Made by a program: the position numbers and the translations under genes. This document shows positions 1 through 22,719 of a stretch of 64,000 bases of DNA, piece by piece. Below the pieces are notes generated by a model. It saw only the letters and a list, made by a program, of their open reading frames with translations, was not told where the DNA came from and ran no database searches. The DNA is from Kofleriaceae bacterium (GTDB lineage Bacteria; Myxococcota_A; Polyangia; Haliangiales; Haliangiaceae), in the NCBI GenBank assembly GCA_041389925.1, contig JAWKQX010000006.1, positions 279,837 through 343,836 on the forward strand. The letters run 5' to 3'. Position 1 is the stretch's first letter, and each line of letters begins with the position of its first letter.

Positions 1-3000
1 GGCACCGAGGCCGGCGTGACCACGCCGAGCGCGGGGACCAACGTGGGCGCCGGCCGCTTCATCCCGGACGCCGATCCGAGCACCACCACCGACCCGTACA
101 ACCGAGACACCGATGACGGCGGGGTGCGCGACGGCGCGGAGGATCCGAACCACAACGGGCGGATCGACGCGGAGGAGCTCGATCCGAACAACCCCGCGGA
201 CGACGTCAGCCCGCTCGACACCGACGGCGACGGCGTGCCCGACGCCGAGGAGGAGGCCATCGGCACCGACCCGAACGATCCGGATAGCGACGACGACGGC
301 GTCCTCGACGGCGCGGAGCCGAGCTTCGCCGACGACAGCGATGGCGACGGCCTGATCAACGCGCTCGATCCCGACTCGGATGACGACGGTCTCTACGACG
401 GCACCGAGCTCGGCGTGACCACCGCCGGTCCGGGCACGGACGTCGCCGCGGGGCACTATGTCCCCGACGCCGATCCGAGCACGACCACCAACCCGCTCGC
501 CTACGACACCGACGGGGGCGGCGTCCACGACGGCGGCGAGGATCTCAACCGCGACGGCGCGGTGGACGCCGGCGAGCGCGATCCGCGGGCGCCCGGCGAC
601 GACACCACGCCGCCGAACGTCGACAGCGACGGCGACGGGCTCCCCGACGCCGCGGAGCTCGCGCTCGGCACGGATCCCAGCGACGCGGACACCGATGACG
701 ACGGCGTGCTCGACGGCGCCGAGGACAACTACGCCGATGACACGGACGGCGACGGCGTGATCAACGCGCTCGATCCCGACTCGGACAACGACGGCCTCTT
801 CGATGGCACCGAGCGCGGCATCGTGACGCCCGGGCCGGACACCGACGTCGGCGCGGGGCACTTCCGCGCGGATGCCGATCCGACGAGCGGCACCAGCATG
901 GTCGATCCGGATAGCGACGACGGCGGCGTGCCCGACGGCATCGAGGACGCGAACCGGAACGGTCGGGTCGACGGGACCGAGACGGATCCGAACGTCGGGT
1001 CCGACGACAACCTCGACGGCGATCAGGACGGCGACGGCATCCGCGACCTCGATGAGGGCGCCGGCGACACGGACGGCGACGGCACGCCGGACTTCCTGGA
1101 CACCGACTCCGACGACGATGGGATCTCCGACGCCGACGAGGCCGGTGACGCCGATCTGTCGACCCCGCCGGTGGACAGCGACGGCGACGGTGTCCCGAAC
1201 TTCCGCGACCTCGACTCGGACAACGACCTCCTGGCCGACGCCGACGAGGCCGGCGACCGCGACGTCGGGACGCCGCCGGTGGACAGCGACGAGGATGGCG
1301 CGCCGGACTACATCGATCTGGACTCCGACGACGACACCATCTCCGACGCCGACGAGGCCGGTGACTCGGACCTGTTCACGGTGCCGGTCGACACCGATGA
1401 GGACGGCACCCCGGACTACCTCGACAGCGACACGGACAACGACGGCCGGCCCGACTCCGAGGAGGCGGGAGACTCCGACCTGAACACGCCGCCGGTGAAC
1501 ACCGACGGCGAGGACGAGCCGGACTGGCGCGATCCCGACTCCGACAACGACGGCGTCGACGACGCGGTGGACAACTGCCGCCTGGTGGGAAACGGCGATC
1601 AGACGGACACGAACTCCGATGGCATCGGCGATGCGTGCCAGGACGACGTGGATGGCGATGGCGTGCTCAATATCCAGGACAACTGTCCGCTGGTCGCGAA
1701 CCCCGACCAGATGAACAGCGATGGCGCTGACGACGGCGGCGACCTGTGCGACGGCGACGACGACGACGACCTGGTCGACGACGAGGTGGACAACTGCCCG
1801 GTCGACGCCAACGCCGATCAGCTCAACACCGACGGCGCCGATGATGGCGGCGACGCCTGCGATCTCGACGACGACGACGACGGGATCGCGGACGCCTCCG
1901 ACAACTGTCCGATCAACGCCAACGCCGGCCAGGAGGACCTCGACGGCGACGGCGTGGGCGACCTGTGCGACCTCACCAACGACCTCGACACCGATCACGA
2001 TGCGACGCCGGACGTCGCCGACAACTGCCCGGAGACCGCGAACCCCGATCAGCGGGACGCGGACCGGGACGGCCTGGGCGACGCGTGCGACCCCGACGAC
2101 GACAACGACGGGTTCGACGACGACCTGACCGTCGCGGGGGGCGGGTGCTCGACCAGCGGGTCGCCGGGCGGCCTCACGGCGCTCTGTGCCCTGACGCTCC
2201 TGGCGCTGCTGCGGCGTCGGCGCCGGCGCGTCGCGGTGACCGCGGCGGGCGTCGCGGGCCTCGCCGTGGCCACCGCCGCGGCGCCCGCGGTGGCGCAGAC
2301 CCTCGCCGAGAGCCAGGACTTCCCAGCCGAGCGATTCCAGCTCTCCTCCTCACGCGATGGCGTGCTCAACGTGGAGGCGGCCACGATCCGCAGCGTCGGC
2401 GCCTGGGACGTCCACCTGTGGCTCGGCGACGCCAACGATCCGATCACGATCTCCCACGTCGACACTAACGGCGACACGCAGCGCGTCGGCTCGCTGATCA
2501 AGAACCGGTTCGGCGGCGAGCTCGGCGGCAGCGTCGTGGTGCTGCCGATGCTCTCCCTGGCCATCGATCTGCCCCTGGTGCTCGCGCAGGATCGCGACAG
2601 CTCCATCTCGGGCGTGTCATCGATGCTCTCGGACCTCGGCGGCGTCGGGCTGGGGGACCTCCGGCTGTCGCCCAAGCTGCGCGTCCTGCACCGGGCGCAG
2701 CACGGCGTGGACCTCGCCGTGCGCGGGCAGCTCACGCTGCCCACCGGGGCGGCGACCAACTATCGCGGCGAGGACGGTGTGAGCTTCTCTCCGTCGGTGA
2801 TGCTGTCGAGCCGGAGCGGCCCAGGGCGCTGGGTCGTGGATCTCGGCTACCTGATGCGACGCGAGTCCCAGGTCGCCGATCTGATGGTGGACGACGAGGT
2901 TCGCTTCCAGGTCGGAGGCGCGTACCGGGTGGCGAAGCCCGCCGAGCTCGGCGCGACGCTCTCGCTGGCGACCGCGGCCAACGACCTCTTCGGGAGCTCC

Positions 3001-4134
3001 TCGCGCAACCACTCCGAGCTCAACGCCGGGCCGACGTTCGAGGTCGGCGACCAGTGGGTGGTGTTCGCGGCCGCGGGGCTGGGGCTGCAGAACGGCTACG
3101 GCACGCCGGACTGGCGCGCGCTGGCCGGCCTGCGCATCGGCCGCCTCGGCGACGAGGCCGGCGCGGATGAGGCCGACGGCGACCGCGATCGGATCTTCGG
3201 CGCCGCCGACCGCTGCCCGGGTGAGCCCGAGGACTTCGATCAGTTCCAGGACGACGACGGCTGCCCGGATCCGGACAACGATCAGGACGGCATCCCGGAC
3301 GTCGCGGACCGCGCGCCGATGGAGCCGGAGGACAAGGACGGCTTCCAGGACGAGGACGGCGTGCCCGATCTCGACAACGACGGCGACGGCATGCCCGACT
3401 CGAGCGATCAGTGCGCCAACGAGCCGGAGACGCTCAACGGCTACCAGGACGACGACGGCTGCCCCGATCAGGCGGATCGCGACGGCGACGGGATCCCCGA
3501 CGCCTCCGACGGGTGCGCCGACGCCGCCGAGGACGTCGATGGCTTCGAGGACACCGACGGCTGCCCGGACACCGACAACGACGGCGACGGCGTGCCGGAC
3601 GCGAACGATCGCTGCCCGCTGGAGAAGGGGGTCGCGGAGAACGCGGGGTGCGTGGACACCGACGGCGACGGCGACGGCGTGGTGGACCGCCTGGACAACT
3701 GCCCCACGCAGAAGGGCGTGATGAAGTACGCCGGGTGCACCTCGGCGCAGGTGGTCACGCTCGACGGCAGCCAGCTCGGGCTCGTCGATCCGGTGTACTT
3801 CCAGACCAACCGTGACGTCATCCAGCGGCGCTCGTATCGGCTCCTCGACAACGTGGCCGCGGTCGTCTCGGCGCACCCCGAGGTCGGCAAGGTGACCGTC
3901 GAGGGCCACACGGACTCCGACGGCGACGACACCTCCAACCTGGAGCTGTCGCAGCGGCGCGCCGAGGCGGTGGTCGCGTACCTGGTCCGCAAGGGCGTCG
4001 ATCCCAGCCGCCTGATCGCCAAGGGCTACGGCGAGACGCAGCCGGTGACGACCAACGCGACCGCGAAGGGACGCGCCACCAACCGTCGCGTGGTGTTCAA
4101 GATCGCCGGGATCGAGTCGCGGAGCCCGCAGTAG
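1..4134 (+). CDS. Very large TSP3 (thrombospondin type-3, DxDxDGxxDxxD) Ca-binding repeat protein with a C-terminal OmpA-like domain. 5' partial, since the ORF is open to the window edge. Internally it carries a MYXO-CTERM-like sorting motif followed by a signal-peptide-like segment, so it is probably a fusion or frameshift of two genes.
   Basis: Continuous ORF 16..4134 with no upstream stop. Dozens of D-x-D-x-DG-x-x-D repeats. C-terminus 'TVEGHTDSDGDDTSNLELSQRRAEAVVAYLVRKGVDPSRLIAKGYGETQP...NRRVVFKI' is an OmpA/MotB peptidoglycan-binding signature. GC3 very high. Confidence 0.8.
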   Translation, partial: GTEAGVTTPSAGTNVGAGRFIPDADPSTTTDPYNRDTDDGGVRDGAEDPNHNGRIDAEELDPNNPADDVSPLDTDGDGVPDAEEEAIGTDPNDPDSDDDGVLDGAEPSFADDSDGDGLINALDPDSDDDGLYDGTELGVTTAGPGTDVAAGHYVPDADPSTTTNPLAYDTDGGGVHDGGEDLNRDGAVDAGERDPRAPGDDTTPPNVDSDGDGLPDAAELALGTDPSDADTDDDGVLDGAEDNYADDTDGDGVINALDPDSDNDGLFDGTERGIVTPGPDTDVGAGHFRADADPTSGTSMVDPDSDDGGVPDGIEDANRNGRVDGTETDPNVGSDDNLDGDQDGDGIRDLDEGAGDTDGDGTPDFLDTDSDDDGISDADEAGDADLSTPPVDSDGDGVPNFRDLDSDNDLLADADEAGDRDVGTPPVDSDEDGAPDYIDLDSDDDTISDADEAGDSDLFTVPVDTDEDGTPDYLDSDTDNDGRPDSEEAGDSDLNTPPVNTDGEDEPDWRDPDSDNDGVDDAVDNCRLVGNGDQTDTNSDGIGDACQDDVDGDGVLNIQDNCPLVANPDQMNSDGADDGGDLCDGDDDDDLVDDEVDNCPVDANADQLNTDGADDGGDACDLDDDDDGIADASDNCPINANAGQEDLDGDGVGDLCDLTNDLDTDHDATPDVADNCPETANPDQRDADRDGLGDACDPDDDNDGFDDDLTVAGGGCSTSGSPGGLTALCALTLLALLRRRRRRVAVTAAGVAGLAVATAAAPAVAQTLAESQDFPAERFQLSSSRDGVLNVEAATIRSVGAWDVHLWLGDANDPITISHVDTNGDTQRVGSLIKNRFGGELGGSVVVLPMLSLAIDLPLVLAQDRDSSISGVSSMLSDLGGVGLGDLRLSPKLRVLHRAQHGVDLAVRGQLTLPTGAATNYRGEDGVSFSPSVMLSSRSGPGRWVVDLGYLMRRESQVADLMVDDEVRFQVGGAYRVAKPAELGATLSLATAANDLFGSSSRNHSELNAGPTFEVGDQWVVFAAAGLGLQNGYGTPDWRALAGLRIGRLGDEAGADEADGDRDRIFGAADRCPGEPEDFDQFQDDDGCPDPDNDQDGIPDVADRAPMEPEDKDGFQDEDGVPDLDNDGDGMPDSSDQCANEPETLNGYQDDDGCPDQADRDGDGIPDASDGCADAAEDVDGFEDTDGCPDTDNDGDGVPDANDRCPLEKGVAENAGCVDTDGDGDGVVDRLDNCPTQKGVMKYAGCTSAQVVTLDGSQLGLVDPVYFQTNRDVIQRRSYRLLDNVAAVVSAHPEVGKVTVEGHTDSDGDDTSNLELSQRRAEAVVAYLVRKGVDPSRLIAKGYGETQPVTTNATAKGRATNRRVVFKIAGIESRSPQ
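2146..2238 (+). other. Internal MYXO-CTERM-like tripartite motif (GGCSTSG Cys motif, hydrophobic helix LTALCALTLLALL, then RRRRRR). It is immediately followed by a signal-peptide-like h-region ending AVA|QT, and by a GTG whose TGA (+1 frame) forms a GTGA overlap at 2236-2239.
   Basis: Translation of 2146-2300 reads CSTSGSPGGLTALCALTLLALLRRRRRRVAVTAAGVAGLAVATAAAPAVAQTL. The TGA at 2237-2239 lies in the +1 frame. Confidence 0.5.
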
Positions 4135-4230
4135 CGGCGCGCGCCTCGGGCGCGCCGCGGTCGGACCTTCGCGACGACGAAGGCCGATGCGGCAGTGGCG
4201 GAGCGGGCGCGTCGCTGCCAAACTAGGCCG

Positions 4231-4989
4231 ATGGTGCGCACCGACCGCGAGGGTCCCGTCACGATCGTGACCCTGGACCGCCCGGCCGTCCGCAACGCCG
4301 TCGACCGAGACACCGCCGCCGCGCTCGCGGCGGCGTTTCGCGCGTTCGAGGCGGACGACACGGCCTCGGTGGCGGTGTTGACCGGAGCCGGTGGGACGTT
4401 CTGCGCCGGCGCCGATCTCAAGGCCATCGCGGAGGGCCGCGGCAACCGGGTGGAGGCCGACGGCGACGCGCCGATGGGCCCCTCCCGCATGCTGCTGTCC
4501 AAGCCGGTGATCGCCGCGATCGCCGGCCACGCGGTGGCGGGCGGCCTGGAGCTGGCGCTGTGGTGCGACCTGCGCGTCGCGGAGGAGGACGCCACCCTCG
4601 GCGTGTTCTGCCGCCGCGTCGGCGTGCCGCTCATCGACGGCGGGACGGTGCGCCTGCCTCGCTTGATCGGGCTGTCGCGAGCGCTCGAGCTCATCCTCAC
4701 GGGGCGGCCCGTGGCGGCGCAGGAGGCGCTGGCGATCGGGCTGGTCCACCGCGTGGTGCCGAAGGGCGAGGCGCGAGCCGAGGCGATCGCGCTGGCACGC
4801 CAGCTCGCCGCGCTGCCGCAAGCGGCGCTCCGGGGGGATCGGCTCAGCGCCTACCAGCAGCACGAGCTCCCCCTGGCGGAGGCGCTGCAGCTCGAGCTGG
4901 ACCATGGGCGGCGCGCGCTGGCGGAGGGCGTCTCCAACGCGCAGCGCTTCGCCGCCGGGGCGGGGCGCCACGGACGCGAGCTGTCGTGA
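4231..4989 (+). CDS. Enoyl-CoA hydratase/isomerase (crotonase family)
   Basis: ATG at 4231. 'VTLDRPAVRNAV...VAVLTGAGGTFCAGADLKA' is crotonase-fold oxyanion-hole region. Length about 252 aa. Confidence 0.8.
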   Translation: MVRTDREGPVTIVTLDRPAVRNAVDRDTAAALAAAFRAFEADDTASVAVLTGAGGTFCAGADLKAIAEGRGNRVEADGDAPMGPSRMLLSKPVIAAIAGHAVAGGLELALWCDLRVAEEDATLGVFCRRVGVPLIDGGTVRLPRLIGLSRALELILTGRPVAAQEALAIGLVHRVVPKGEARAEAIALARQLAALPQAALRGDRLSAYQQHELPLAEALQLELDHGRRALAEGVSNAQRFAAGAGRHGRELS

Positions 4990-5291
4990 TCCGCGCGTCG
5001 GCCCTGCTGCTGGCGCTGGCGCTGGCCACCTCATCGTGTGCGCTGATCCGCGTGTTCACGGGCAACCGCGTCACCGGCACCTGCGACGGCGCCTGCGCGC
5101 ACTACATCGACTGCAAGCCGGGCGCGACCGTCGCCGATCGCCAGCGATGCGATCTGGAGTGCCCGCAGGTATTCGCGGATCGCAGCTCGCTGAGCATGTT
5201 CGAGCGCCTGACTTGCCCCGACGCGGTCAGCTACGTCGACGGAGATCCGCCCACCACTGCTGACACGCGGGTGCCGGCGCCCGCGCGCTGA
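4985..5291 (+). CDS. Small Cys-rich secreted lipoprotein, hypothetical
   Basis: GTG at 4985 overlaps the TGA of the crotonase gene (GTGA). Signal peptide with lipobox 'LALATSSC'. 8 Cys in about 100 aa. Confidence 0.5.
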
Positions 5292-5456
5292 GCCGCTGCT
5301 CCCGAACGAAGCAGGTGCTGCGAGGCGGCGCGTCGCCATGGAGCAGCCGTGGCGAGGGCAGCTCCAACCGCCCGGAACTCTTGCACAGCCAGCCTGGCAT
5401 CGCGCGTGCTTTAGCGGTAGCTCGCCGCGAAACGCGGCTTCGCAACAGGAGGCCTC

Positions 5457-6299
5457 ATGTCCAGTCCCTTGACCATTCGATTCTTTGGCGTGCGTGGCTC
5501 GGTCGCCACGCCGGGTGCGGCGTTCGCGGGCGTCGGCGGCAACACCGCCTGCGTCGAGGTCTCGGCCGGTGAGACGCGCATCGCGCTCGACGCCGGGACC
5601 GGGCTGCGCGCGCTCGGCGACGAGCGGATGCGCGCCGGGCTGCGCGAGCACACGATCCTGCTCTCCCACCTGCACTGGGATCACCTCCAGGGGCTGCCGT
5701 TCTTCACGCCGGTGTACGTCCCGGGGCACCGGGTGAACATCCTCTCGGGGCCGACCGGCGCGAAGCCGCTCACCGAGGCGCTGCCCTCGCTGTTCTCGGC
5801 GCCGTTCTTCCCGGTGGAGTTCGGCGTCGTCGCGGAGCAGATCACCCTCCGCGAGCTGCGGTCCTCGGAGCGCTTCACCGTTGGGGAGCTCTCGGTGACG
5901 ATGGCGCGGCTCAACCATCCGGATCCGGTCTACGGGTTTCGCCTCGAGGCCGGTGGGCGCTCGGTCGTGTACGCCACCGACACCGAGCACTACGCGTGCG
6001 TGGACCCGACGCTCGCGCGCCTCGCGGCCGACGCCGACGTGCTGATCTACGACTGCCAGTACGCACCGGAGGAGTACCCGACGCGGGTGGGGTGGGGCCA
6101 CTCGACGTGGCAGGCCGGCGTGGAGCTCGCGCGGGCGGCGCGCGTCTCGCAGCTCGTGTTGTTCCACCATGATCCGATGCGCACCGACGAGCAGGTCGCG
6201 GAGCTGGAGCGTCACGCGCGCGCCGCGTTCCCCGGCGCGATCGCCGCGCGAGAGGGGTTGGTGCTGGTCCCCGGAGAGGCGGAGCGTGTCGCCGCCTGA
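5457..6299 (+). CDS. MBL-fold metallo-hydrolase (beta-lactamase superfamily)
   Basis: '[17 protein letters not shown]' HxHxDH motif plus downstream His/Asp ligands. 280 aa. Confidence 0.8.
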
Positions 6300-6387
6300 G
6301 CCACACGTCGGGGCGCTCGGGTGGGGGATCCCGGCGGCGCAGGTCGACGAGGGCCGGCCTCCCGCACGCGCGGGGCGATCTCGCAGT

Positions 6388-7944
<1,557 letters not shown>

Positions 7945-8018
7945 CGCCGCGCACGGCGCGCGGAGAATCCCGGCGCGCAAATTGGCGAGGTCCCCGAACG
8001 CGCGGTACGGTCGGCGCC

Positions 8019-8582
8019 ATGCTGACGCACGTACGCACCCTCCGCACAGTCGCAGCCACGGTCGCGCTCGCGGCCGCGCCGTTGACCGCCGCGCGCGACG
8101 CCGCGGCGCAGCCCGCAGGCGAGGAGGAGGAATCCGCCAGCGATCGCCTCGAGCGCGGCGCCGAGAAGGGGACGTTCGGCATCGGGCTCTACATCGGCGA
8201 GCCGATCGGCGTCACCGCGAAGCTGTATCTCGAGGATGATCGCGCGGTGCAAGGCGCGATGGGCTTCGCGTTCGCCGGAGACGGCTTTCAGATCCACGGC
8301 GACTACGTGCTCCACCCGTACATCCTCCAGGACAAGGAGGAGTTCACGATGCCGGTGTACGTGGGCCCTGGCGTCAGGTTCATCCAGTACCGCGCGGGGC
8401 GCGACGGCGACCGCTACGTCGCGGTCGGCGCCCGCGCGGTCGCGGGCTTTCTGTTCGACTTCAAGGAGATCCCGCTCGACGCGTTCCTGGAGGTCGCCGG
8501 CGTGATCGAGTACGGCTTCGCGGATCGGGCGGGCTTCGGGCTGACGCTCAACGCCGGCGCCGGCGCCCGCTACTACTTCTGA
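8019..8582 (+). CDS. Small outer-membrane beta-barrel protein (signal peptide, C-terminal aromatic residue)
   Basis: Signal peptide 'VAATVALAAAPLTAARDAAAQ'. Alternating hydrophobic beta-strand pattern. Ends '...GAGARYYF'. Confidence 0.65.
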   Translation: MLTHVRTLRTVAATVALAAAPLTAARDAAAQPAGEEEESASDRLERGAEKGTFGIGLYIGEPIGVTAKLYLEDDRAVQGAMGFAFAGDGFQIHGDYVLHPYILQDKEEFTMPVYVGPGVRFIQYRAGRDGDRYVAVGARAVAGFLFDFKEIPLDAFLEVAGVIEYGFADRAGFGLTLNAGAGARYYF

Positions 8583-8607
8583 CGTCGCGGCTGGACGCGC
8601 GGGGCGC

Positions 8608-9033
8608 TCAGGCCGCGGCGACCAAGCGGAGCAGCTCATCGGAGCGCGCGAGCCCGAGCTTCTGGGCGGCGACCCGGCCACCGCGGACCACCACAAACGT
8701 CGGCACGCTCGTGATCCCGTAGCGCGACGCGATCGCCGGGAGCCGATCGATGTCGACCTCGACGACCGCGGCGCGACCGGCGAGCTGACCGGCGGCGCGC
8801 GCGACCTCGGGCGCGGCCATGCGGCAGGGACCGCACCAGGCAGCGGAGAAGTCGACGAGGATCGGCACGGGCGCCTCGCGCACCAGCTCATCGAAGGACG
8901 TCGCGTCGGCGATCTTGATCGTCGAGGAGGCCGCCGGAAGCGCGGTCTTGCACCGGCCGCAGCGCGCCTCATCGGCGACGCGGCGAGCCGGGACGCGGTT
9001 GGTGGCGCCGCAGGTTGGGCAGGTCCGGTTCAT
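8608..9033 (-). CDS. trxC: Thioredoxin, Trx2-type with N-terminal zinc-finger extension
   Basis: 'CPTCGATN...CGRCK' Zn-finger followed by the 'WCGPC' active site. 141 aa. Confidence 0.85.
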   Translation of the reverse strand: MNRTCPTCGATNRVPARRVADEARCGRCKTALPAASSTIKIADATSFDELVREAPVPILVDFSAAWCGPCRMAAPEVARAAGQLAGRAAVVEVDIDRLPAIASRYGITSVPTFVVVRGGRVAAQKLGLARSDELLRLVAAA

Positions 9034-9074
9034 GGCGACAACCTGGACACGCCGTGCGCCCTGTCAAGGTGCCT

Positions 9075-9300
9075 GCCGTGCACGTGGCGCGTTGCCGTGC
9101 ACGTGGTGCACCGCGGTCCGTGTGTCCCGCCGTGCACCTGGGGCCCGTGGCACACAGGTGCTCCTCGGTGCCCGTGGCACACGTGGCGCACGTGGCACAC
9201 GTGGCGCACGTGGCACACGTGGCGCACGTGGCGCACGTGGTGCACGTGGTGCACGCAGTTCACGCGGTCCCCCACCGTGCACCTGGTGCACGTGGCGCGC
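9075..9300. repeat. Array of 12 or more CACGTG-containing 9-bp units (CACGTGGCG/CACGTGGCA/CACGTGGTG), 9 of them perfectly tandem at 9174-9254. Lies in the divergent intergenic region between trxC and the S8 protease gene.
   Basis: Direct reading: gtggcacacgtggcgcacgtggcacacgtggcgcacgtggcacacgtggcgcacgtggcgcacgtggtgcacgtggtgcacgc, plus flanking degenerate copies at 9082, 9106 and 9282. Confidence 0.9.
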
Positions 9301-9456
9301 AGCACTCGTGCAGGTGGTGTACGGCAGAGCACGCGAGCGAAAAAAACAGCCGCGCTGTCCAATCGCTCCGGCCACTCGCGTAGGTCGAGTTGTCGCGCGG
9401 CCTCGCTCCCTCGCTGGATGAGGCGCGCTTGATGCCACTCACTTTTGGGGGATGCC

Positions 9457-11442
9457 ATGTCTCGTTCTCGTGCTGCAGTTTCACGTCTCGGGCTCACCTG
9501 CTCGTTGTTGAGCGTCGGACTCTTGGGTTGTAACGGAGAGCCCGCCGACGTCGGCAGGGTCGGGGCGAGGAGCGCCGTCGCTCACGCGCTCACCAGCGGC
9601 GACGATCCGCTGGACGCTCCCCAGGAGCTCCTCGATGCCGCGCGCGAGCTGCTCGGCGCGCGGCTCGGTCAGGATCCGGCGACCCTCGTCATCACCAACG
9701 CCGCGCCAGTGACGTTCCCGCTGCTGCAGCGCAGCCTCTATCGGTTCAAGGCGCTCGATGGTCGCGGCGACGTCCAGTCGATCGCGCTCAACAACAACGG
9801 GACGCGCGAGGAGGACTTCGAGGCGCTTGAGGGGCTCGAGGCCTCGCTGTACCAGCAGGATCACGGACAGCTCACGCCCGATCTGGCCGAGCAGCTCGCG
9901 GTGCTCCCCGACGAAGAGGAGATCGAAGTCGCGATCCAGGCGCTCGTTCCGCAGGGTGACTCCGGCGGGCCCATGCGCCCCGATCCCTCGACGAACCTCT
10001 CGGACTCGGAGGTGGACGCCTTGTACACGGCGGTGGACGCGCACCGCTCCGAGGTCGCGCGGGTGCTGACCGCGCCGATCAAGCAGCGGCTCGGAGGTCT
10101 GGGCTATCAGGGGGAGGCGGACGCGCTCGCGCCGATCGTGCACGTCAAGCTCCCCGTCCACCTGATCCGAGAGGCGGCGCGCTGGAATGACGTCAGCAAG
10201 ATCTTCGCGTCCGCGACCTACGAGTCGACGATGAACGTCGCGCGCGCGACCGTCGAGGCGGACGTCGTGAACTCGCGAGGCATCACGGGGACCGGGGTTC
10301 GCGTCGCCGAGATCGAGGTCGGCGGCATGCTCCCTGCGGCCAACCCGTTCCTCGCGGGGACGACGCAGGATCCGGTGTCCGCGTGCTTTCATCCTCACGC
10401 GACCTGGGTCGCGGGCACGATCCGCAGCACGCACGCGACCATCCGCGGGGTCTCGCCCGACGTCAACCTGCGCGTGGGCGGCTCCTGCGCGGGCTCCGGT
10501 TCGCAGCTGGTCAGTCGCTCCACCGCGGCGTCGAGCTGGGGCGCGCGCGCGTTCAACTTGAGCTTCGGGAGCAACGCGGGCACGCAGCCCGGCGCGCTCG
10601 ACAACTACTACGACGACCTGGTGCAGAACGGCTGGCGTACGGTGGTGGTGTCCGCGGGCAACTCGGGTCCGTCGGCGATCGTCGGCAGCCCGGGGCGGGC
10701 CTACAACGTGCTGACGGTCGGCGCGATCGATGATCACAACACGATCCCGTGGCTCGGCGACACGATGAGCACGTTCTCGAGCTCGCTTGATCCCGTGTCG
10801 TTGCACGGCGATCGCGAGAAGCCGGAGGTGGTGGCGCCGGGCACGAGCATCACGACGACGTCGCCGACGTCGCCGTGGGTGGGCGCGACGGTCTCCGGCA
10901 CGAGCTTCTCGGCGCCCATCACCACGGGCTCCGCGGCGCTGCTCATGCGGCGGTCGTCCGGATTGCAGGTCTGGCCAGAGGCGGTGAAGGCGATCTTGAT
11001 GGCCACCGCGGTCCACAACGTCGAAGGCGCGACGCGCCTGAGCGAGCGCGACGGCGCGGGGGCGATCGTCGACGGTCTCGCGGACGACATCGCCCACGGC
11101 GTCAGCGGGAACTGGGGAGGGCGCGCGTACTCCTGCGGGGTCCCGACGATCCAGAACGTCACGACCATGTCGCTCGTCTCCAATCGCGTCACGCGAGTCG
11201 CGGTCACGTGGGACACCAACCCGAGCTACAACCAGTATGCCGGCCAGCCGAGCGCCGATCTCGATGTCACGATCCTCGGTCCCTCGGGTGCCGTCGTCGC
11301 GGGCTCGGGGAGCTGGGACAACCCGTACGAGATGATCGAGTTCACGGCGCCGGTGACCGGCACATACACCGTGCGCGTCCACAAGTACCGCTGCAGCCTG
11401 ACCCCGAAGTGGCTGGGCTGGGCGTGGTACCAGAACTACTGA
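9457..11442 (+). CDS. Secreted subtilisin-like serine protease (peptidase S8) with lipoprotein-type signal peptide and C-terminal beta-rich domain
   Basis: Lipobox 'LLGC'. Asp/His/Ser triad contexts: 'VRVAEIEVGG' (D), 'HATWVAGT' (H), 'GTSFSAPITTGSAALL' (S). GGGGGA SD-like sequence 8 bp upstream of ATG 9457. A TTG at 9445 is also possible. Confidence 0.85.
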   Translation: MSRSRAAVSRLGLTCSLLSVGLLGCNGEPADVGRVGARSAVAHALTSGDDPLDAPQELLDAARELLGARLGQDPATLVITNAAPVTFPLLQRSLYRFKALDGRGDVQSIALNNNGTREEDFEALEGLEASLYQQDHGQLTPDLAEQLAVLPDEEEIEVAIQALVPQGDSGGPMRPDPSTNLSDSEVDALYTAVDAHRSEVARVLTAPIKQRLGGLGYQGEADALAPIVHVKLPVHLIREAARWNDVSKIFASATYESTMNVARATVEADVVNSRGITGTGVRVAEIEVGGMLPAANPFLAGTTQDPVSACFHPHATWVAGTIRSTHATIRGVSPDVNLRVGGSCAGSGSQLVSRSTAASSWGARAFNLSFGSNAGTQPGALDNYYDDLVQNGWRTVVVSAGNSGPSAIVGSPGRAYNVLTVGAIDDHNTIPWLGDTMSTFSSSLDPVSLHGDREKPEVVAPGTSITTTSPTSPWVGATVSGTSFSAPITTGSAALLMRRSSGLQVWPEAVKAILMATAVHNVEGATRLSERDGAGAIVDGLADDIAHGVSGNWGGRAYSCGVPTIQNVTTMSLVSNRVTRVAVTWDTNPSYNQYAGQPSADLDVTILGPSGAVVAGSGSWDNPYEMIEFTAPVTGTYTVRVHKYRCSLTPKWLGWAWYQNY

Positions 11443-19719: not shown

Positions 19720-20277
19720 CTAGGAGCCGCGGCGCGGCAGCTCGCCCTCGGGATCCGGCAGCGCCTCCACGCGCGCGAGGACGTACTCGACCAGCGGCTC
19801 CGCGAGCTCTTCGGCCGGCGACGGGATCGCGAAGTACGGGCCGCCCTGCGCGGCGCGAAACGCCAGGAAGTGATGCACCGGATCTTGCTCGATCGCGTCG
19901 CCGTGCTCGGCGCGGTAGCGCTCCACCGCGTCCGCCAGGCGCGCGAGCACCTCGGCGTTCTCGATGGCGCCGATCGCGTCGAACGCCGCGGCGTAGCGTC
20001 GCGTGGCCTCGGCGCCGTGGTTCCACGCGACCTGATCGAGGCCGCCGTTGGCGAGGTCTCGATCGATCGCGCGCTTGGCGTGCACCGCGTCGATCGCGCC
20101 CTGCGGGAGCAGCGGCACGGCGAAGGTCGGCGCGGCCGCCGCCAACCTCAGCACGTCGTCCAGCGAAGCCTCGTACGGGTCGCGCAGCGAGTACAGGGCG
20201 GCCCGGAGCTCGACCTCGGCAAAGCCGCCCGCGTCGCGTCGCTCGTCATCTTGATCGGCTGAGTCGTCGGCCATCGC
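19720..20277 (-). CDS. Hypothetical protein (acidic N-terminus, about 185 aa)
   Basis: ATG at 20277 (MADDSADQDDERRD...). Good GC3. No motif I can name with confidence. Confidence 0.5.
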   Translation of the reverse strand, partial: AMADDSADQDDERRDAGGFAEVELRAALYSLRDPYEASLDDVLRLAAAAPTFAVPLLPQGAIDAVHAKRAIDRDLANGGLDQVAWNHGAEATRRYAAAFDAIGAIENAEVLARLADAVERYRAEHGDAIEQDPVHHFLAFRAAQGGPYFAIPSPAEELAEPLVEYVLARVEALPDPEGELPRRGS

Positions 20278-20490
20278 TCCCTCGCGTTCGTGGCGGCCCG
20301 CGCCGCTCGCTGCACGGGCGAGGCGAGACCGAGCCGACTGTATCCTCGGCGAAGGGCGCACGCCAGGCGGCCGCGCGCCTCTGGGGCGCTCCCCAGGTGC
20401 TCGCCCGTGGTGAGCGAGGTGCCACGGAGGCGGTCAGGCCTCTTCGGCGTCTGTCCTATCCCGAGCCACGGCGCCGCGATACCATGCGGC

Positions 20491-21552
20491 ATGGCGGAGC
20501 GGCGGCGGACAGGTCCTGCGCAGCGTGTGACCTCGAGCAGGCTCCTCGGGATGCTCGATCGCTTCTACGATCTCGAGGCCGATGACGTCACGTGGATGCG
20601 CGGGCTCGCCGAGGCGATCGGGCCGCTGGTGGACTGCGGCGCGGGCGTGTTCACGTGCGCGGTGGGGACCGTCCCCGAGGCCGAGCCCTTGTTCCTCAGC
20701 CGCGACTACGACTGCACCGCGATGTGGCGGCGGCTGCAGGCCGTCGTGCCCCAGTGGGTGTTCGTCGAGGTCATGCAGCAGATGCCGATCAGCAACACCG
20801 ACATGGCCGCGCCGCACCTTCGGCGCTTCGCGTCCACGACGCATCGAGCGATGGGGATGTATAGCTGCTCGGGGATCAACGCGGCGCGCGCGGACGGCGT
20901 GCTCACGGTGAGCATCCCCGCGCCGACGCGTGGAATCGTTTTCTGGCCCGAACAGGATCGCCAGCTCTGGGATCGCATCGCGGCGCACCTAAGCGCCGCG
21001 TTTCGGCTCCGGGGCAACCGCGACCCGCGTCCGCGGCTGGTGTTCGACGAGCGGGGGCGGCTCTTGCACGCGGAGCCGGACGTCGCGCGCGATCGGTCCC
21101 TGCCGTCGCTGCGCGACGCGGCAGAGGCGGTGGCGCGCGCGCGCAACCGCCGGCTCCCGCCGGCCAAGGTGCTGGCGGCGTGGCGGGCGCTGTACCAGGG
21201 CGACTGGTCGATCGTGGAGTCGGTGCAGCGCGACGGCCGCCGCTTGCTCCTGGCGCGGCCGAACGCGCCGCTGGCGCTCTCTCGCTCGAGCGGGCCCGGC
21301 TCGCCTCCGAGCCCGGGGGGCGGGTCGCCGCCCCGACCGGCGCTGTCCCCAACGGAGCGCCGGGTGCTGGCGGCGCTGGCGAGCGGTCACTCCAACAAGG
21401 CGATCGCGTATCAGCTCGGCCTCGCGGACTCCACGGTCAGCACGCTGCTGGCGCGGGCGGCGCGCAAGCTCGGCTGTCGCAACCGCGTCGAGCTCACCGT
21501 GGCGGCGCGCGCGGCGCGGGCGGGCGACGCGCCGCCGGACCCCGACGCGTGA
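20491..21552 (+). CDS. LuxR-family transcriptional regulator (GerE-type C-terminal HTH, about 270-aa N-terminal domain of unknown function), paralogue A
   Basis: C-terminal 'LSPTERRVLAALASGHSNKAIAYQLGLADSTVSTLLARAARKLGCRNRVEL' is a LuxR/GerE HTH. ATG 20491 (MAERRRTGPAQ). Confidence 0.75.
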   Translation: MAERRRTGPAQRVTSSRLLGMLDRFYDLEADDVTWMRGLAEAIGPLVDCGAGVFTCAVGTVPEAEPLFLSRDYDCTAMWRRLQAVVPQWVFVEVMQQMPISNTDMAAPHLRRFASTTHRAMGMYSCSGINAARADGVLTVSIPAPTRGIVFWPEQDRQLWDRIAAHLSAAFRLRGNRDPRPRLVFDERGRLLHAEPDVARDRSLPSLRDAAEAVARARNRRLPPAKVLAAWRALYQGDWSIVESVQRDGRRLLLARPNAPLALSRSSGPGSPPSPGGGSPPRPALSPTERRVLAALASGHSNKAIAYQLGLADSTVSTLLARAARKLGCRNRVELTVAARAARAGDAPPDPDA

Positions 21553-21651
21553 TCGCGGCCGGGACTCCTGGCGTGCTGGTGGCCGGCGGCCCGCCGCGCC
21601 CGCAGATAGGGATCGCCCAAGGAACGTCCGTTGCGGTATGGTGGCGCTGAC

Positions 21652-22719
21652 ATGGCGGAGCGGCGGAGGAAAGGCCCTGCGCAGATCGTGACCTCGGGGC
21701 GGCTCCTTGCGCTCCTCGATCGGTTCTACGACATGGACGTCGATGACCTGACGTGGATGCACGGGGTCGCCGAGGCCATCGAGCCGCTGGTGGACTGCGG
21801 GGCGGGGGTGTTCGCGAGCGCCATCCCCTCGGTGCCGGGGTACACGATGAGCGTCGCCAATCGCGGGTATGACGGCGAGGCTGCGTGGGGACGGGTGGGG
21901 GACCTCTTGCCGAGGTCGATCGTCACGCGCCTCGTGCGCCAGATGCCGATCAGCAACGCGGACAAGAGCCCCGCGCCGGACATTCGACGCCTCGGGCCGA
22001 TCGTCCATGGGATCATGGGAGTGCATAGCTGCTCGGGCATCACGGCCTCACGCGCGGATGGGTTCTTCGCGATCAGCATCCCCGCGCCGACGCGCGGGGT
22101 CGTGTTCTGGCCCGAGCACGATCGCCCGCTGTGGGATCGCATCGTGGCGCACCTCAGCGCCGCGTTTCGGCTGCGCCGCGACCGCGACCAGCGGCCGCGG
22201 CTGGTGTTCGACGCGCGGGGGCGCCTCTTGCACGCGGAGCGAGACGTCGTCGCCGATCCCACGCTGCCGACGCTGCGCCAGGCCGCCGGGGCGGTGGCGC
22301 AGGCGCGCAACCGGCGGGGCTCGCCGGCGAAGGTGCTGGCGGCGTGGCGGGCGCTCTACCAGGGCGACTGGTCGATCGTGGAGTCGGTGCAGCGCGACGG
22401 CCGCCGGCTGCTCCTGGCGCGGCCGAACGCGCCGCTGGCGCTCGCCGAGCAAGGCGCGCCGGCGCCGCGTCCGCGGCAGGAGCCTGCGCCGTCGCCGGCT
22501 CGCCCGTCGCTGTCGCCGGCGGAGCGGCGGGTGCTCGAGGCGCTGGCCAGCGGTAGCTCCAACAAGGCGATCGCGTATCAGCTCGGCCTCGCGGACTCCA
22601 CGGTCAGCACGTTGCTGGCGCGGGCGGCGCGCAAGCTCGGCTGTCGCAACCGCATCGAGCTCACCGTGGCAGCGCGCGCGGCGCGAGGGGACGACGCCCC
22701 GCTGGGGCGTGAGCCGTGA
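21652..22719 (+). CDS. LuxR-family transcriptional regulator, paralogue B (tandem duplicate of 20491..21552)
   Basis: Same architecture. N-terminus 'MAERRRKGPAQIVTSGRLL'. The 3' half is near-identical to paralogue A at nucleotide level (e.g. gtgctggcggcgtggcgggcgct...gactggtcgatcgtggagtcggtgcagcgcgacggccgcc). Confidence 0.75.
   Translation: MAERRRKGPAQIVTSGRLLALLDRFYDMDVDDLTWMHGVAEAIEPLVDCGAGVFASAIPSVPGYTMSVANRGYDGEAAWGRVGDLLPRSIVTRLVRQMPISNADKSPAPDIRRLGPIVHGIMGVHSCSGITASRADGFFAISIPAPTRGVVFWPEHDRPLWDRIVAHLSAAFRLRRDRDQRPRLVFDARGRLLHAERDVVADPTLPTLRQAAGAVAQARNRRGSPAKVLAAWRALYQGDWSIVESVQRDGRRLLLARPNAPLALAEQGAPAPRPRQEPAPSPARPSLSPAERRVLEALASGSSNKAIAYQLGLADSTVSTLLARAARKLGCRNRIELTVAARAARGDDAPLGREP

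What the first reader, a model, noticed from the sequence alone, without database searches (positions are those of the whole stretch)
1..4134. A MYXO-CTERM-like sorting signal and a fresh signal peptide sit in the middle of a 1372-aa ORF. Two surface-protein genes appear fused.
At nt 2146-2300 the single ORF reads ...GGCSTSGSPGGLTALCALTLLALL-RRRRRR-VAVTAAGVAGLAVATAAAPAVA|QTL. The first part is a Cys motif plus TM helix plus Arg cluster, which is the architecture of the myxobacterial MYXO-CTERM C-terminal sorting tag. That tag should terminate a protein. The Arg cluster plus the following hydrophobic stretch and AxA site look like a textbook Sec signal peptide that should begin a protein. A GTG whose TGA lies in the +1 frame (GTGA, 2236-2239) sits exactly at the junction. 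So two genes may have been welded by a 1-nt indel or in-frame deletion: a TSP3-repeat surface protein, and an OM protein with TSP3 repeats and an OmpA domain. Alternatively this is an assembly frameshift. Either way the annotation as one giant protein is probably wrong or evolutionarily recent.
Basis: partly seen in the sequence, partly recalled or inferred. Interest (0 to 1): 0.55.

Follow-up and report, generated by a model that had tools for sequence, protein, structure and literature searches.

The report
Conserved fused adhesin–outer-membrane protein gene
The mid-protein "end-of-protein" sorting tag followed by a "start-of-protein" signal peptide is real, but it is not an assembly error: it is an old, widespread gene fusion in myxobacteria of a surface adhesin with its outer-membrane partner, a design already noted once in Myxococcus xanthus.

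Summary
Observation confirmed. One frame-1 ORF, open at the window's left edge, runs to the stop at 4132-4134. At nt 2137-2295 it reads GGGC, a TM helix, RRRRRR, an Ala/Val-rich hydrophobic stretch, then AVA|Q. The tag passes NCBIfam MYXO-CTERM models.

In 16 independent MAG loci the same junction sits in one continuous ORF of 1046-2628 aa. Among the 150 best 50%-identity cluster representatives of the barrel domain, 108 are long and at least 106 show the same tag plus signal peptide. AxA|Q is kept in 99 of 125 long proteins. Two loci have no in-frame start codon at the junction, and none has a Shine-Dalgarno-like motif. One relative (L017) keeps two genes with an ATGA overlap, like traA/traB.

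Most likely this is an envelope polyprotein. The Arg cluster would serve as both the cytoplasmic anchor of the tag and the n-region of an internal signal peptide. Signal peptidase I would free the barrel/TSP3/OmpA protein, and myxosortase would free the adhesin half. Processing is inferred, not shown.

Guo, Haft & Wall (mBio 2025) described this architecture for MXAN_5598. This is a new member of a known kind.

The parts
1..2136 (+). Adhesin-like N-terminal half. It is 5'-truncated by the window edge, acidic and rich in TSP3 repeats, with internal 405-bp and 108-bp tandem units.
   Evidence: PF02412 TSP_3 at 96.5 bits and PF18884 at 44.3 bits. Best NCBIfam matches are MtsC (201 bits, below its 350 cut-off) and CglD. 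Tandem repeats. 67% identical over 692 aa to the same part of L004.
2137..2229 (+). Internal MYXO-CTERM-type tripartite tag. GGGC motif at 2137-2148 (Cys at 2146-2148), Ser/Gly spacer, TM helix GGLTALCALTLLALL at about 2167-2211, and Arg cluster RRRRRR at 2212-2229.
   Evidence: TIGR03382 at 23.2 bits isolated and 17.0 in context (cut-off 15.85). TIGR03901 at 20.7 bits isolated and 15.3 in context (cut-off 20). 9 of 10 homologous junction tags pass TIGR03901.
2212..2295 (+). Internal Sec-type signal peptide. The n-region is the same RRRRRR cluster, the h-region is VAVTAAGVAGLAVATAAA, the c-region is PAVA, and the predicted signal peptidase I site is A765|Q766 (nt 2295|2296).
   Evidence: Read directly from the sequence. 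AxA|Q is present in 17 of 18 loci examined and in 99 of 125 long family members. 95 of 125 linkers carry at most one charged residue. Stand-alone homologues have an ordinary N-terminal signal peptide ending at the same alignment position.
2236..2239 (+). GTGA. An in-frame GTG overlapping a +1-frame TGA. It may be a relic of an ancestral stop/start overlap, or it may be chance.
   Evidence: No Shine-Dalgarno-like motif lies upstream. A start-type codon lies within 0-5 residues after the Arg cluster in 8 of 18 loci, but none is present anywhere in the junction of L010 and L013.
2299..3150 (+). Outer-membrane beta-barrel domain of COG4313/FapF type, about 284 aa.
   Evidence: PF13557 at 32.4 bits (cut-off 22). 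AF2 model is all-beta with pLDDT 69 and pTM 0.72. Foldseek against PDB finds FapF 5o68 (E 2e-10, TM 0.64/0.72) and the COG4313 channel 4rl8 (TM 0.68/0.72).
3151..3795 (+). Periplasmic linker of TSP3-like Cys/Asp repeats (99-bp and 201-bp tandem units at 3223-3610).
   Evidence: PF02412 at 28.7 bits. Tandem repeats. The TraB model NF033763 matches this part together with the OmpA domain only (profile positions 317-498).
3796..4086 (+). OmpA-like peptidoglycan-binding domain.
   Evidence: PF00691 at 84.4 bits, residues 521-617 of the translation that starts at nt 2236.
4132..4134 (+). Stop codon of the fused ORF.

Best explanation
The ORF is a genuine, conserved fusion of an adhesin-type MYXO-CTERM surface protein with its TraB-like outer-membrane partner (12-strand-type barrel, TSP3 linker, OmpA domain). 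It is translated as one envelope polyprotein.

Proposed pathway, all steps inferred:
1. An N-terminal signal exports the adhesin half through Sec. This signal is a lipoprotein signal in 10 of the full-length relatives (L023 has a plain signal peptide) and lies outside the window here.
2. The tag's TM helix stops transfer, and the Arg cluster stays in the cytoplasm.
3. The hydrophobic stretch after the Arg cluster re-initiates translocation, with the Arg cluster as its n-region. The tag helix and this stretch would form a helical hairpin.
4. Signal peptidase I cuts at AVA|Q. This releases the barrel/OmpA protein for BAM insertion and peptidoglycan binding.
5. Myxosortase (MrtX) processes the Cys tag, so the adhesin half goes to the cell surface through the type II secretion system.
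6. A hairpin of about 45-50 aa is left over.

The net effect is obligatory 1:1 co-production. This is the same outcome that the 4-base translational overlap gives in traA/traB.

Shown here: the fusion, its conservation, the identity of the tag, the signal-peptide features, and the absence of an independent translation start. Inferred: every processing step.
For: - The continuous ORF with the same junction is present in 16 of 20 related genome loci, including paralogue pairs within one MAG.
- L004 is collinear with both halves: 67% identity over 692 aa and 74% over 606 aa.
- Census with a barrel profile against 1.84 billion representatives gave 6408 hits. Of the best 150, 108 have the barrel starting at residue 75 or later, and at least 106 show G-x-C, a TM helix, an R/K cluster, a hydrophobic linker and small-x-small.
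- AxA|Q occurs in 99 of 125 long proteins. The linker median is 21 aa (range 12-43). 123 of 125 have at least 3 R/K within 7 residues.
- 9 of 10 homologous tags pass TIGR03901, and the window's tag passes TIGR03382.
- L010 and L013 have no in-frame ATG/GTG/TTG between the Arg cluster and the cleavage site. No Shine-Dalgarno-like motif precedes any junction start codon in the Arg-cluster-to-cleavage segment of the fused loci examined (L022's junction proper fell outside the scanned window). The two-gene locus L017 has AGGAAGGGG before its ATG.
- Stand-alone homologues carry a normal N-terminal signal peptide that ends at the homologous position.
- The barrel fold requires an outer-membrane location.
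- Literature: MXAN_5598 has the same architecture, and its authors propose that the N-terminal part is processed. MrtX cleaves MYXO-CTERM. Sorting tags work when internal (PMC11980579). MXAN_5598 was found in OMVs (PMC4158809).
Against: - There is no experimental evidence of cleavage for this protein or any fused member.
- SignalP and DeepTMHMM were not available. The signal-peptide call rests on rule-of-thumb features and conservation.
- The h-region is Ala/Val/Gly-rich and only moderately hydrophobic.
- The N-terminus of the window's protein is not in the window, so its own export signal is unseen.
- Neither myxosortase nor a type II secretion system was looked for beyond the 7 neighbouring ORFs scanned.
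- TIGR03901 falls below its cut-off when scored within the 745-aa N half (15.3 versus 20).
- A start-type codon close after the Arg cluster in 8 of 18 loci leaves room for some internal initiation.
Confidence: 0.68

Rival explanations
1. Assembly or sequencing frameshift, or a very recent 1-nt indel, artificially welded two genes that are really separate with a GTGA overlap.
For: GTGA at 2236-2239 sits 2 codons after the Arg cluster. One relative (L017) really has two genes with an ATGA overlap, and traA/traB overlap by 4 bases.
Against: The same in-frame junction occurs in 16 independent assemblies made by different sequencing projects, and in at least 106 of the 150 top cluster representatives. 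The closest relative L004 (about 70% identity) is fused in the same way. The start-type codon near the Arg cluster is seen in only 8 of 18 loci, and GTGA occurrences are not position-conserved. No Shine-Dalgarno-like motif is present.
Confidence: 0.02
2. The fusion is real but is not cut on both sides. The protein might stay as one polypeptide tethered to the inner membrane by the helical hairpin. Alternatively only one cleavage might occur, either by myxosortase or by signal peptidase, so the two halves remain physically linked or one half stays anchored in the inner membrane.
For: No cleavage data exist. Hairpin-anchored bitopic proteins are common. The h-region is only moderately hydrophobic.
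Against: A COG4313/FapF-type barrel must be assembled in the outer membrane, which is hard to reconcile with a covalent inner-membrane tether. AxA|Q is far better conserved than the surrounding linker sequence. Homologues with the same mature N-terminus, (D/N)F(S/P)VERF, exist as ordinary secreted proteins. The tag keeps its HMM-detectable Cys motif in 9 of 10 relatives.
Confidence: 0.2
3. The C-terminal half is mainly produced on its own by internal translation initiation at the GTG/ATG just after the Arg cluster. The read-through fusion would then be a minor or non-functional by-product.
For: An in-frame start-type codon lies 0-5 residues after the Arg cluster in the window (GTG 2236) and in L004, L005, L007, L018, L019, L022 and L023.
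Against: L010 and L013 have no such codon. In L006, L008, L009, L011, L012 and L014 the first start-type codon lies 5 or more residues into the hydrophobic stretch. No Shine-Dalgarno-like motif precedes these codons. A product starting at GTG 2236 would lack a charged n-region. The upstream reading frame has no stop codon, so the fusion protein is made in any case.
Confidence: 0.08

Closest known systems
MXAN_5598 of Myxococcus xanthus (internal MYXO-CTERM protein; Guo, Haft & Wall, mBio 2025, PMC11980579)
   Same: The architecture matches as described: a large N-terminal adhesin region, an internal MYXO-CTERM motif, then an OM beta-barrel and an OmpA cell-wall-binding domain. The authors interpret it as a fusion of two genes analogous to TraA plus TraB and propose that the N-terminal part is processed and surface-anchored.
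   Different: Sequence relatedness could not be tested because the MXAN_5598 sequence was not obtainable here. MXAN_5598 lies next to ftsA/ftsZ. No FtsZ motif is present in the window or in the 20-kb flanks of the related loci, and the window's downstream genes are unrelated. The passages I retrieved by term search describe this as a rare, atypical case and contained no mention of an internal signal peptide. Here the fused form dominates the family (at least 106 of the 150 top representatives) and has a conserved AxA|Q site.
TraA/TraB outer-membrane exchange pair of M. xanthus (Pathak et al. 2012, PMC3325183)
   Same: A MYXO-CTERM surface receptor is followed by an OmpA-domain partner. The genes are translationally coupled by a 4-base overlap. 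The two-gene relative L017 has exactly this ATGA arrangement, with a DUF4215 Cys-repeat upstream protein. Some fused relatives (L014, L019) carry TraA-like DUF4215 repeats.
   Different: The window protein fails the TraB model (213.7 bits versus a 700 cut-off), and that match covers only the TSP3 and OmpA parts. The visible part of the N half has TSP3 repeats rather than Cys repeats, and no PA14-like domain is seen. In the window the two reading frames are fused rather than overlapping.
MtsC / CglD (TSP3-repeat MYXO-CTERM or lipoprotein adhesins of M. xanthus)
   Same: These are the best NCBIfam matches for the N half (MtsC 201 bits, CglD 109 bits). They share acidic TSP3 repeats, and MtsC also ends in a MYXO-CTERM tag.
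   Different: Both scores are below the curated cut-offs (350 and 400). Neither protein is described as continuing into a barrel/OmpA module.
Signal-peptidase-processed polyproteins with internal signal sequences (HCV core-E1 junction, PMC5402940; from my own knowledge, the Bradyrhizobium FbcH cytochrome b-c1 precursor)
   Same: The logic is the same. A membrane-embedded segment in mid-polypeptide acts as the signal peptide for the downstream protein and is cut by signal peptidase. The upstream product is then released by a second intramembrane protease: signal peptide peptidase in HCV, myxosortase proposed here.
   Different: The proteins and hosts are unrelated. The parallel is mechanistic only, and no processing has been shown here. 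FbcH could not be checked in the paper library.
Internal tripartite sorting signals processed by sortase or archaeosortase (Navarre & Schneewind 1994; Abdul Halim et al. 2017; cited in PMC11980579)
   Same: These are precedents that a C-terminal-type sorting tag is still recognised when more polypeptide follows it.
   Different: In those cases the downstream sequence is not a second exported protein carrying its own signal peptide.

Membership tests
MYXO-CTERM sorting domain (TIGR03901 / TIGR03382) | Short signature motif with an invariant Cys | tested here: met
   GGGC at aa 713-716 (nt 2137-2148). The HMM alignments start at this motif.
MYXO-CTERM sorting domain (TIGR03901 / TIGR03382) | Hydrophobic TM helix followed by an Arg-rich cluster | tested here: met
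   GGLTALCALTLLALL followed by RRRRRR. Across the family the median maximum Kyte-Doolittle score over 12 residues is 2.76, and at least 3 R/K occur within 7 residues in 123 of 125 proteins.
MYXO-CTERM sorting domain (TIGR03901 / TIGR03382) | HMM score at or above the curated cut-off | tested here: inconclusive
   TIGR03382 scores 17.0 bits in context and 23.2 bits isolated, against a cut-off of 15.85, so it passes. TIGR03901 scores 15.3 bits in context (fails) and 20.7 bits isolated (just passes the cut-off of 20). Tags of relatives score 24-32 bits on TIGR03901.
MYXO-CTERM sorting domain (TIGR03901 / TIGR03382) | Located at the extreme C-terminus of the protein | tested here: not met
   634 codons follow the Arg cluster in the same frame before the stop at 4132.
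MYXO-CTERM sorting domain (TIGR03901 / TIGR03382) | N-terminal signal peptide on the same protein, and myxosortase plus a type II secretion system in the genome | not testable with these tools
   The N-terminus lies outside the window. 10 full-length relatives start with lipoprotein-type signals (...AAC|). The rest of the genome is not available.
Sec (signal peptidase I) signal peptide | Positively charged n-region, uncharged hydrophobic h-region, and small residues at -3 and -1 | tested here: met
   RRRRRR / VAVTAAGVAGLAVATAAA / P-A-V-A|Q. AxA|Q occurs in 99 of 125 family members. No SignalP run was possible.
Sec (signal peptidase I) signal peptide | Located at the N-terminus of the translated product | tested here: not met
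   It is preceded by at least 737 in-frame codons. There is no conserved start codon or Shine-Dalgarno-like motif.
TraB (NF033763, outer membrane exchange protein) | Full-length HMM score at or above 700 bits | tested here: not met
   213.7 bits. The match is limited to profile positions 317-498, which cover the TSP3 and OmpA parts.
MtsC (NF047638) | HMM score at or above 350 bits | tested here: not met
   201.1 bits for the N half.
MXAN_5598-type fused adhesin / internal MYXO-CTERM / barrel / OmpA protein | Domain order: adhesin region, internal MYXO-CTERM, OM beta-barrel, OmpA domain | tested here: met
   compared with the description in PMC11980579.
MXAN_5598-type fused adhesin / internal MYXO-CTERM / barrel / OmpA protein | Sequence homology to MXAN_5598, and a location beside ftsA/ftsZ | tested here: inconclusive
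   The MXAN_5598 sequence could not be retrieved. No FtsZ signature is present in the window or in any related locus. The side upstream of the window is unseen.
OmpA family (PF00691) | Pfam score at or above the gathering threshold | tested here: met
   84.4 bits against a threshold of 27.2, at nt 3796-4086.
COG4313 / Phenol_MetA_deg OM barrel (PF13557) | Pfam score at or above the gathering threshold, and a barrel fold | tested here: met
   32.4 bits against a threshold of 22. The AF2 model matches 4rl8 (TM 0.68/0.72) and FapF. Model confidence is only moderate (pLDDT 69).

The most novel reading that the evidence does not exclude
Fused adhesin/MYXO-CTERM/signal-peptide/barrel-OmpA proteins may be the prevailing form of this family in Kofleriaceae, Haliangium and relatives, rather than a rare oddity.

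They would be true bacterial envelope polyproteins. A single helical hairpin with one shared Arg cluster would be cut on one side by myxosortase and on the other by signal peptidase I. This would deliver two proteins in fixed 1:1 stoichiometry to two different destinations, the cell surface and the outer membrane/cell wall.

The fused and two-gene states are one small indel apart and both should give the same mature products. Lineages may therefore have switched repeatedly between them. The minimum is 25 state changes on a rough neighbour-joining tree.
Probability: 0.55. Interest if true: 0.5.

Novelty: new member of a known kind. Interest (0 to 1): 0.36.

Why it matters
For annotation: the single giant ORF should be kept. 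It should not be split or flagged as a frameshift. Mid-protein hits to MYXO-CTERM models next to a barrel/OmpA module are a recognisable, legitimate architecture.

For biology: the family offers a natural test of whether a C-terminal sorting tag and a Sec signal peptide can share one Arg cluster and work back-to-back. It also offers many natural variants (fused, overlapping, separate, reversed order) for asking why surface adhesins in myxobacteria are so tightly coupled to a TraB-like barrel/OmpA partner. The general idea was already published for MXAN_5598, so the added value is breadth and junction detail rather than a new principle.

Tried and rejected
1. A second homologous-protein search used a 23-sequence barrel profile (A3), aiming to reach M. 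xanthus and MXAN_5598. It returned only 12 hits and none was named Myxococcus, so homology to MXAN_5598 stays untested.
2. The supplement of PMC11980579 was searched for MXAN_5598. Nothing is held there.
3. All loci and the window were searched for the FtsZ signature GGGTG[ST]G, to find a syntenic MXAN_5598 orthologue. None was found.
4. The DNA for P0006 was not retrievable because the sample file is too large. Its tag-plus-signal-peptide N-terminus is known only at the protein level.
5. Metagenome contigs L002 and L003 are cut 20-100 nt upstream of the barrel. L003 shows only the end of the signal peptide. The first 60 nt of L002 do not read as a TM helix plus Arg cluster in frame. This may be a chimeric contig end, so neither was used as evidence.
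6. The literature was searched for bacterial internal-signal-peptide polyproteins and fbcH. Only viral examples were found. FbcH is cited from memory.
7. The window was checked for other MYXO-CTERM ORF ends that could serve as an in-genome control. None was seen.
8. Long antisense ORFs over the region (for example 2617-5034 on the minus strand, 805 aa) were considered. They were rejected as high-GC artefacts, because only the + frame-1 ORF passed the GC3/GC2 coding-frame filter for positions 1-4134.
9. Stand-alone relatives L024-L026 were examined to test whether stand-alone genes always follow a MYXO-CTERM gene. They do not. The contexts vary: divergent adhesin gene, reversed gene order, or an unrelated upstream gene.

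Full report
**What is in the window.** Frame 1 of the + strand is open from nt 1 to the stop at 4132-4134. The ORF runs off the left edge, so the protein is longer than the 1372 aa counted from the first GTG.

Its coordinates are:
- Tag Cys: nt 2146-2148.
- Arg cluster: nt 2212-2229.
- AVA|Q site: nt 2295|2296.
- GTGA: nt 2236-2239, with GTG in frame and TGA in the +1 frame.

The window is 73% G+C. Of all ORFs overlapping 1-4134, only this one has the GC3/GC2 pattern of a coding frame. The long antisense ORFs are composition artefacts.

**Domain identities.**
- The isolated 45-aa tag passes both NCBIfam MYXO-CTERM models (TIGR03382 23.2 bits versus 15.85; TIGR03901 20.7 versus 20). Within the 745-aa N half only TIGR03382 passes (17.0), and TIGR03901 drops to 15.3.
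- The N half is a TSP3-repeat, adhesin-like region (PF02412, 96.5 bits). It is closest to MtsC and CglD but scores below their cut-offs.
- The C half has a PF13557 (COG4313-type) barrel, TSP3-like repeats and an OmpA domain (PF00691, 84.4 bits). It resembles TraB only over the TSP3 and OmpA parts (213.7 bits versus a 700 cut-off).
- An AF2 model of the barrel domain (pLDDT 69, pTM 0.72) is all-beta. Its best matches are the FapF secretion channel and the COG4313 channel 4rl8, with TM-scores of 0.64-0.72.

**Is the fusion an artefact?** No.

A protein search found a Kofleriaceae fragment (P0003, 55% identity) with the same in-frame junction. A scan of one genome per species with a barrel-domain profile returned 20 loci. 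Their states were:
- 16 loci have the barrel in one continuous ORF of 1046-2628 aa. The junction is GG(G/A)C, a TM helix, R3-6, 17-33 hydrophobic residues, then AxA|Q/E.
- L006 is cut by the contig end but shows RRRRR plus a signal peptide in frame.
- L020 and L021 are stand-alone genes.
- L017 has two genes. The upstream MYXO-CTERM gene ends ...YRRRRKEADDTLNETQEGATR*, and its TGA overlaps the ATG of MNIKKIDIAIAMTAVVVVLSGDAQA|QSQ (ATGA overlap).

Three MAGs each carry two loci. In two of them both paralogues are fused (L004/L005 and L007/L010); in the third, L019 is fused and L006 is cut by the contig end. L004 is collinear with both halves of the window protein, at 67% identity over 692 aa and 74% over 606 aa. 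NCBI annotates the L005 product as a single 1818-aa protein.

**Census.** A profile of the barrel domain was searched against 1.84 billion cluster representatives. It gave 6408 hits at E<=1e-3 and 641 at E<=1e-30.

Of the best 150, 108 have the barrel starting at residue 75 or later. Of these 108, 89 pass a strict tag/signal-peptide regular expression, and 17 of the other 19 visibly have the same junction. Among the 42 short hits, most start with an ordinary M...AxA|Q signal peptide. A few are truncated gene calls that still show tag relics.

Over 125 long proteins (the census hits plus the window and locus ORFs):
- AxA|Q occurs in 99.
- The linker median is 21 aa (range 12-43).
- 95 linkers carry at most one charged residue.
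- 123 have at least 3 R/K within 7 residues.

Nine of ten tags taken from relatives pass TIGR03901 at 24-32 bits.

**Can the second half be made on its own?** Not in general.

L010 and L013 have no in-frame ATG, GTG or TTG between the Arg cluster and the cleavage site. In several other loci the only candidates lie inside the h-region. No Shine-Dalgarno-like motif precedes any start codon in the Arg-cluster-to-cleavage segment of the fused loci examined, whereas L017 has AGGAAGGGG before its ATG; L022's junction proper fell outside that scan.

A start-type codon 0-5 residues after the Arg cluster is present in 8 of 18 loci: the window's GTG 2236, plus L004, L005, L007, L018, L019, L022 and L023. 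It may be a relic of the ancestral start, or it may allow minor internal initiation. In either case the upstream frame has no stop codon, so the fusion protein is made.

**Most likely mechanism (inferred).**
1. The full-length relatives begin with an export signal, a lipoprotein signal in 10 of them, so the N half is exported by Sec.
2. The tag helix stops transfer, with the Arg cluster on the cytoplasmic side.
3. The following hydrophobic stretch, with the same Arg cluster as its n-region, restarts translocation.
4. Signal peptidase I cuts at AxA|Q. This frees the barrel/TSP3/OmpA protein for outer-membrane insertion and peptidoglycan binding.
5. [quoted passage not shown] MrtX has been shown to cleave MYXO-CTERM in TraA (PMC11980579).

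The result equals what the translationally coupled traA/traB pair achieves with its 4-base overlap (PMC3325183), but with fixed 1:1 stoichiometry. The logic parallels viral polyproteins such as the HCV core-E1 junction, which is cut by signal peptidase and then by signal peptide peptidase (PMC5402940). From my own knowledge it also parallels the Bradyrhizobium FbcH cytochrome b-c1 precursor.

**Variation in the N half and in gene context.** The N halves differ between loci. L012 has cadherin-like, Big_9 and DUF11 domains, L014 and L019 have DUF4215 Cys repeats, and the window has TSP3 repeats. The tag, signal peptide, barrel and OmpA module stays constant.

On a rough neighbour-joining tree of 173 barrel domains, the fused (122) and stand-alone (35) states are interspersed, with a Fitch minimum of 25 changes. 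This is suggestive only, because the tree is neighbour-joining and metagenomic gene calls may be imperfect.

Stand-alone genes occur in several contexts: divergent from an adhesin gene (L024), ahead of an adhesin gene (L025), or after an unrelated gene (L026).

[quoted passage not shown] They describe MXAN_5598 as an N-terminal adhesin, an internal MYXO-CTERM, then an OM beta-barrel plus OmpA. They suggest a fusion of two genes like TraA plus TraB, and propose that the N part is processed and surface-anchored. They cite precedents for internal sorting tags. MXAN_5598 was detected in OMVs (PMC4158809).

The window's gene is therefore a new member of a kind already described. Two points go beyond the passages I retrieved by term search: the conserved internal signal peptide that shares the Arg cluster, and the finding that the fused form is the majority among the closest family members.

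I could not test sequence homology to MXAN_5598. The ftsA/ftsZ neighbourhood is not seen here.

**Verdict.** The reading that two genes were joined is right as evolutionary history. The reading that the one-protein annotation is wrong, recent or a frameshift is not supported. Interest is moderate to low. This is a tidy and widespread architecture with a plausible dual-cleavage mechanism, but its principle is already in the literature and all processing steps remain inferred.

Noticed in passing
window 63-990, 1059-1565, 1677-1932, 3223-3610: The gene is built from long in-frame tandem DNA repeats: 405 bp x2.3, 108 bp x4.7, 111 bp x2.3 and 99/201 bp x3.7/1.8, at 70-77% identity. These encode the TSP3-type acidic modules on both sides of the junction.
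   Followed up: partly
L005, L008, L009, L012, L013, L014, L015, L018, L019, L022 (N-termini of the fused ORFs): Ten full-length fused relatives start with a lipoprotein-type signal (for example MRKFFALLAAMAIAAC|). The adhesin half would therefore be lipid-anchored at its N-terminus as well as carrying the Cys tag at its C-terminal end. L023 instead has a plain signal peptide.
   Followed up: no
L022:8423-11563: This fused Polyangiaceae relative keeps a complete second signal peptide with its own Met and n-region directly after the tag (RRRRR-MQTKPLGGARSRRFIGFLLGMLMLFLTPKFAWA|E). It looks like a less streamlined or independent fusion.
   Followed up: partly
L024:1639-7414; L025:715-8208: Other arrangements of the same two components exist. 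In L024 a 1232-aa DUF11/DUF4215 adhesin gene is divergent from a stand-alone barrel gene, and the OmpA part of that gene is called as a separate overlapping ORF (5605-6636 and 6593-7414). In L025 the barrel-OmpA gene comes first, and an adhesin gene of at least 2437 aa starts 4 nt later.
   Followed up: no
L002:1-100: In this 75%-identical metagenome contig, the 60 nt upstream of the signal-peptide h-region do not read as a TM helix plus Arg cluster in the gene's frame, and there is a TGA in another frame at nt 5-7. This may be a chimeric contig end or a different junction state.
   Followed up: no
window 2299-3150 (barrel domain model): The best structural matches of the barrel are the FapF amyloid-subunit secretion channel (5o68, 5o65) and then the COG4313 hydrophobic-molecule channel 4rl8. 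This raises the untested possibility that the TraB-like partner is a channel rather than only an anchor.
   Followed up: no
window 20263-21552 and 21610-22719 (+ strand): Two adjacent ORFs end in nearly identical C-termini (GLADSTVSTLLARAARKLGCRNR[V/I]ELTVAARAAR...). They look like a tandem duplication of a LuxR-type HTH regulator.
   Followed up: no
window 4195-11439: The genes downstream of the fused ORF are unrelated to it: an enoyl-CoA hydratase, an MBL-fold protein, a GAF/sigma-54 activator, an unassigned 217-aa ORF, a thioredoxin 2 (minus strand) and an S8 subtilase with a PPC domain. There is no conserved synteny with L004 or L005.
   Followed up: partly
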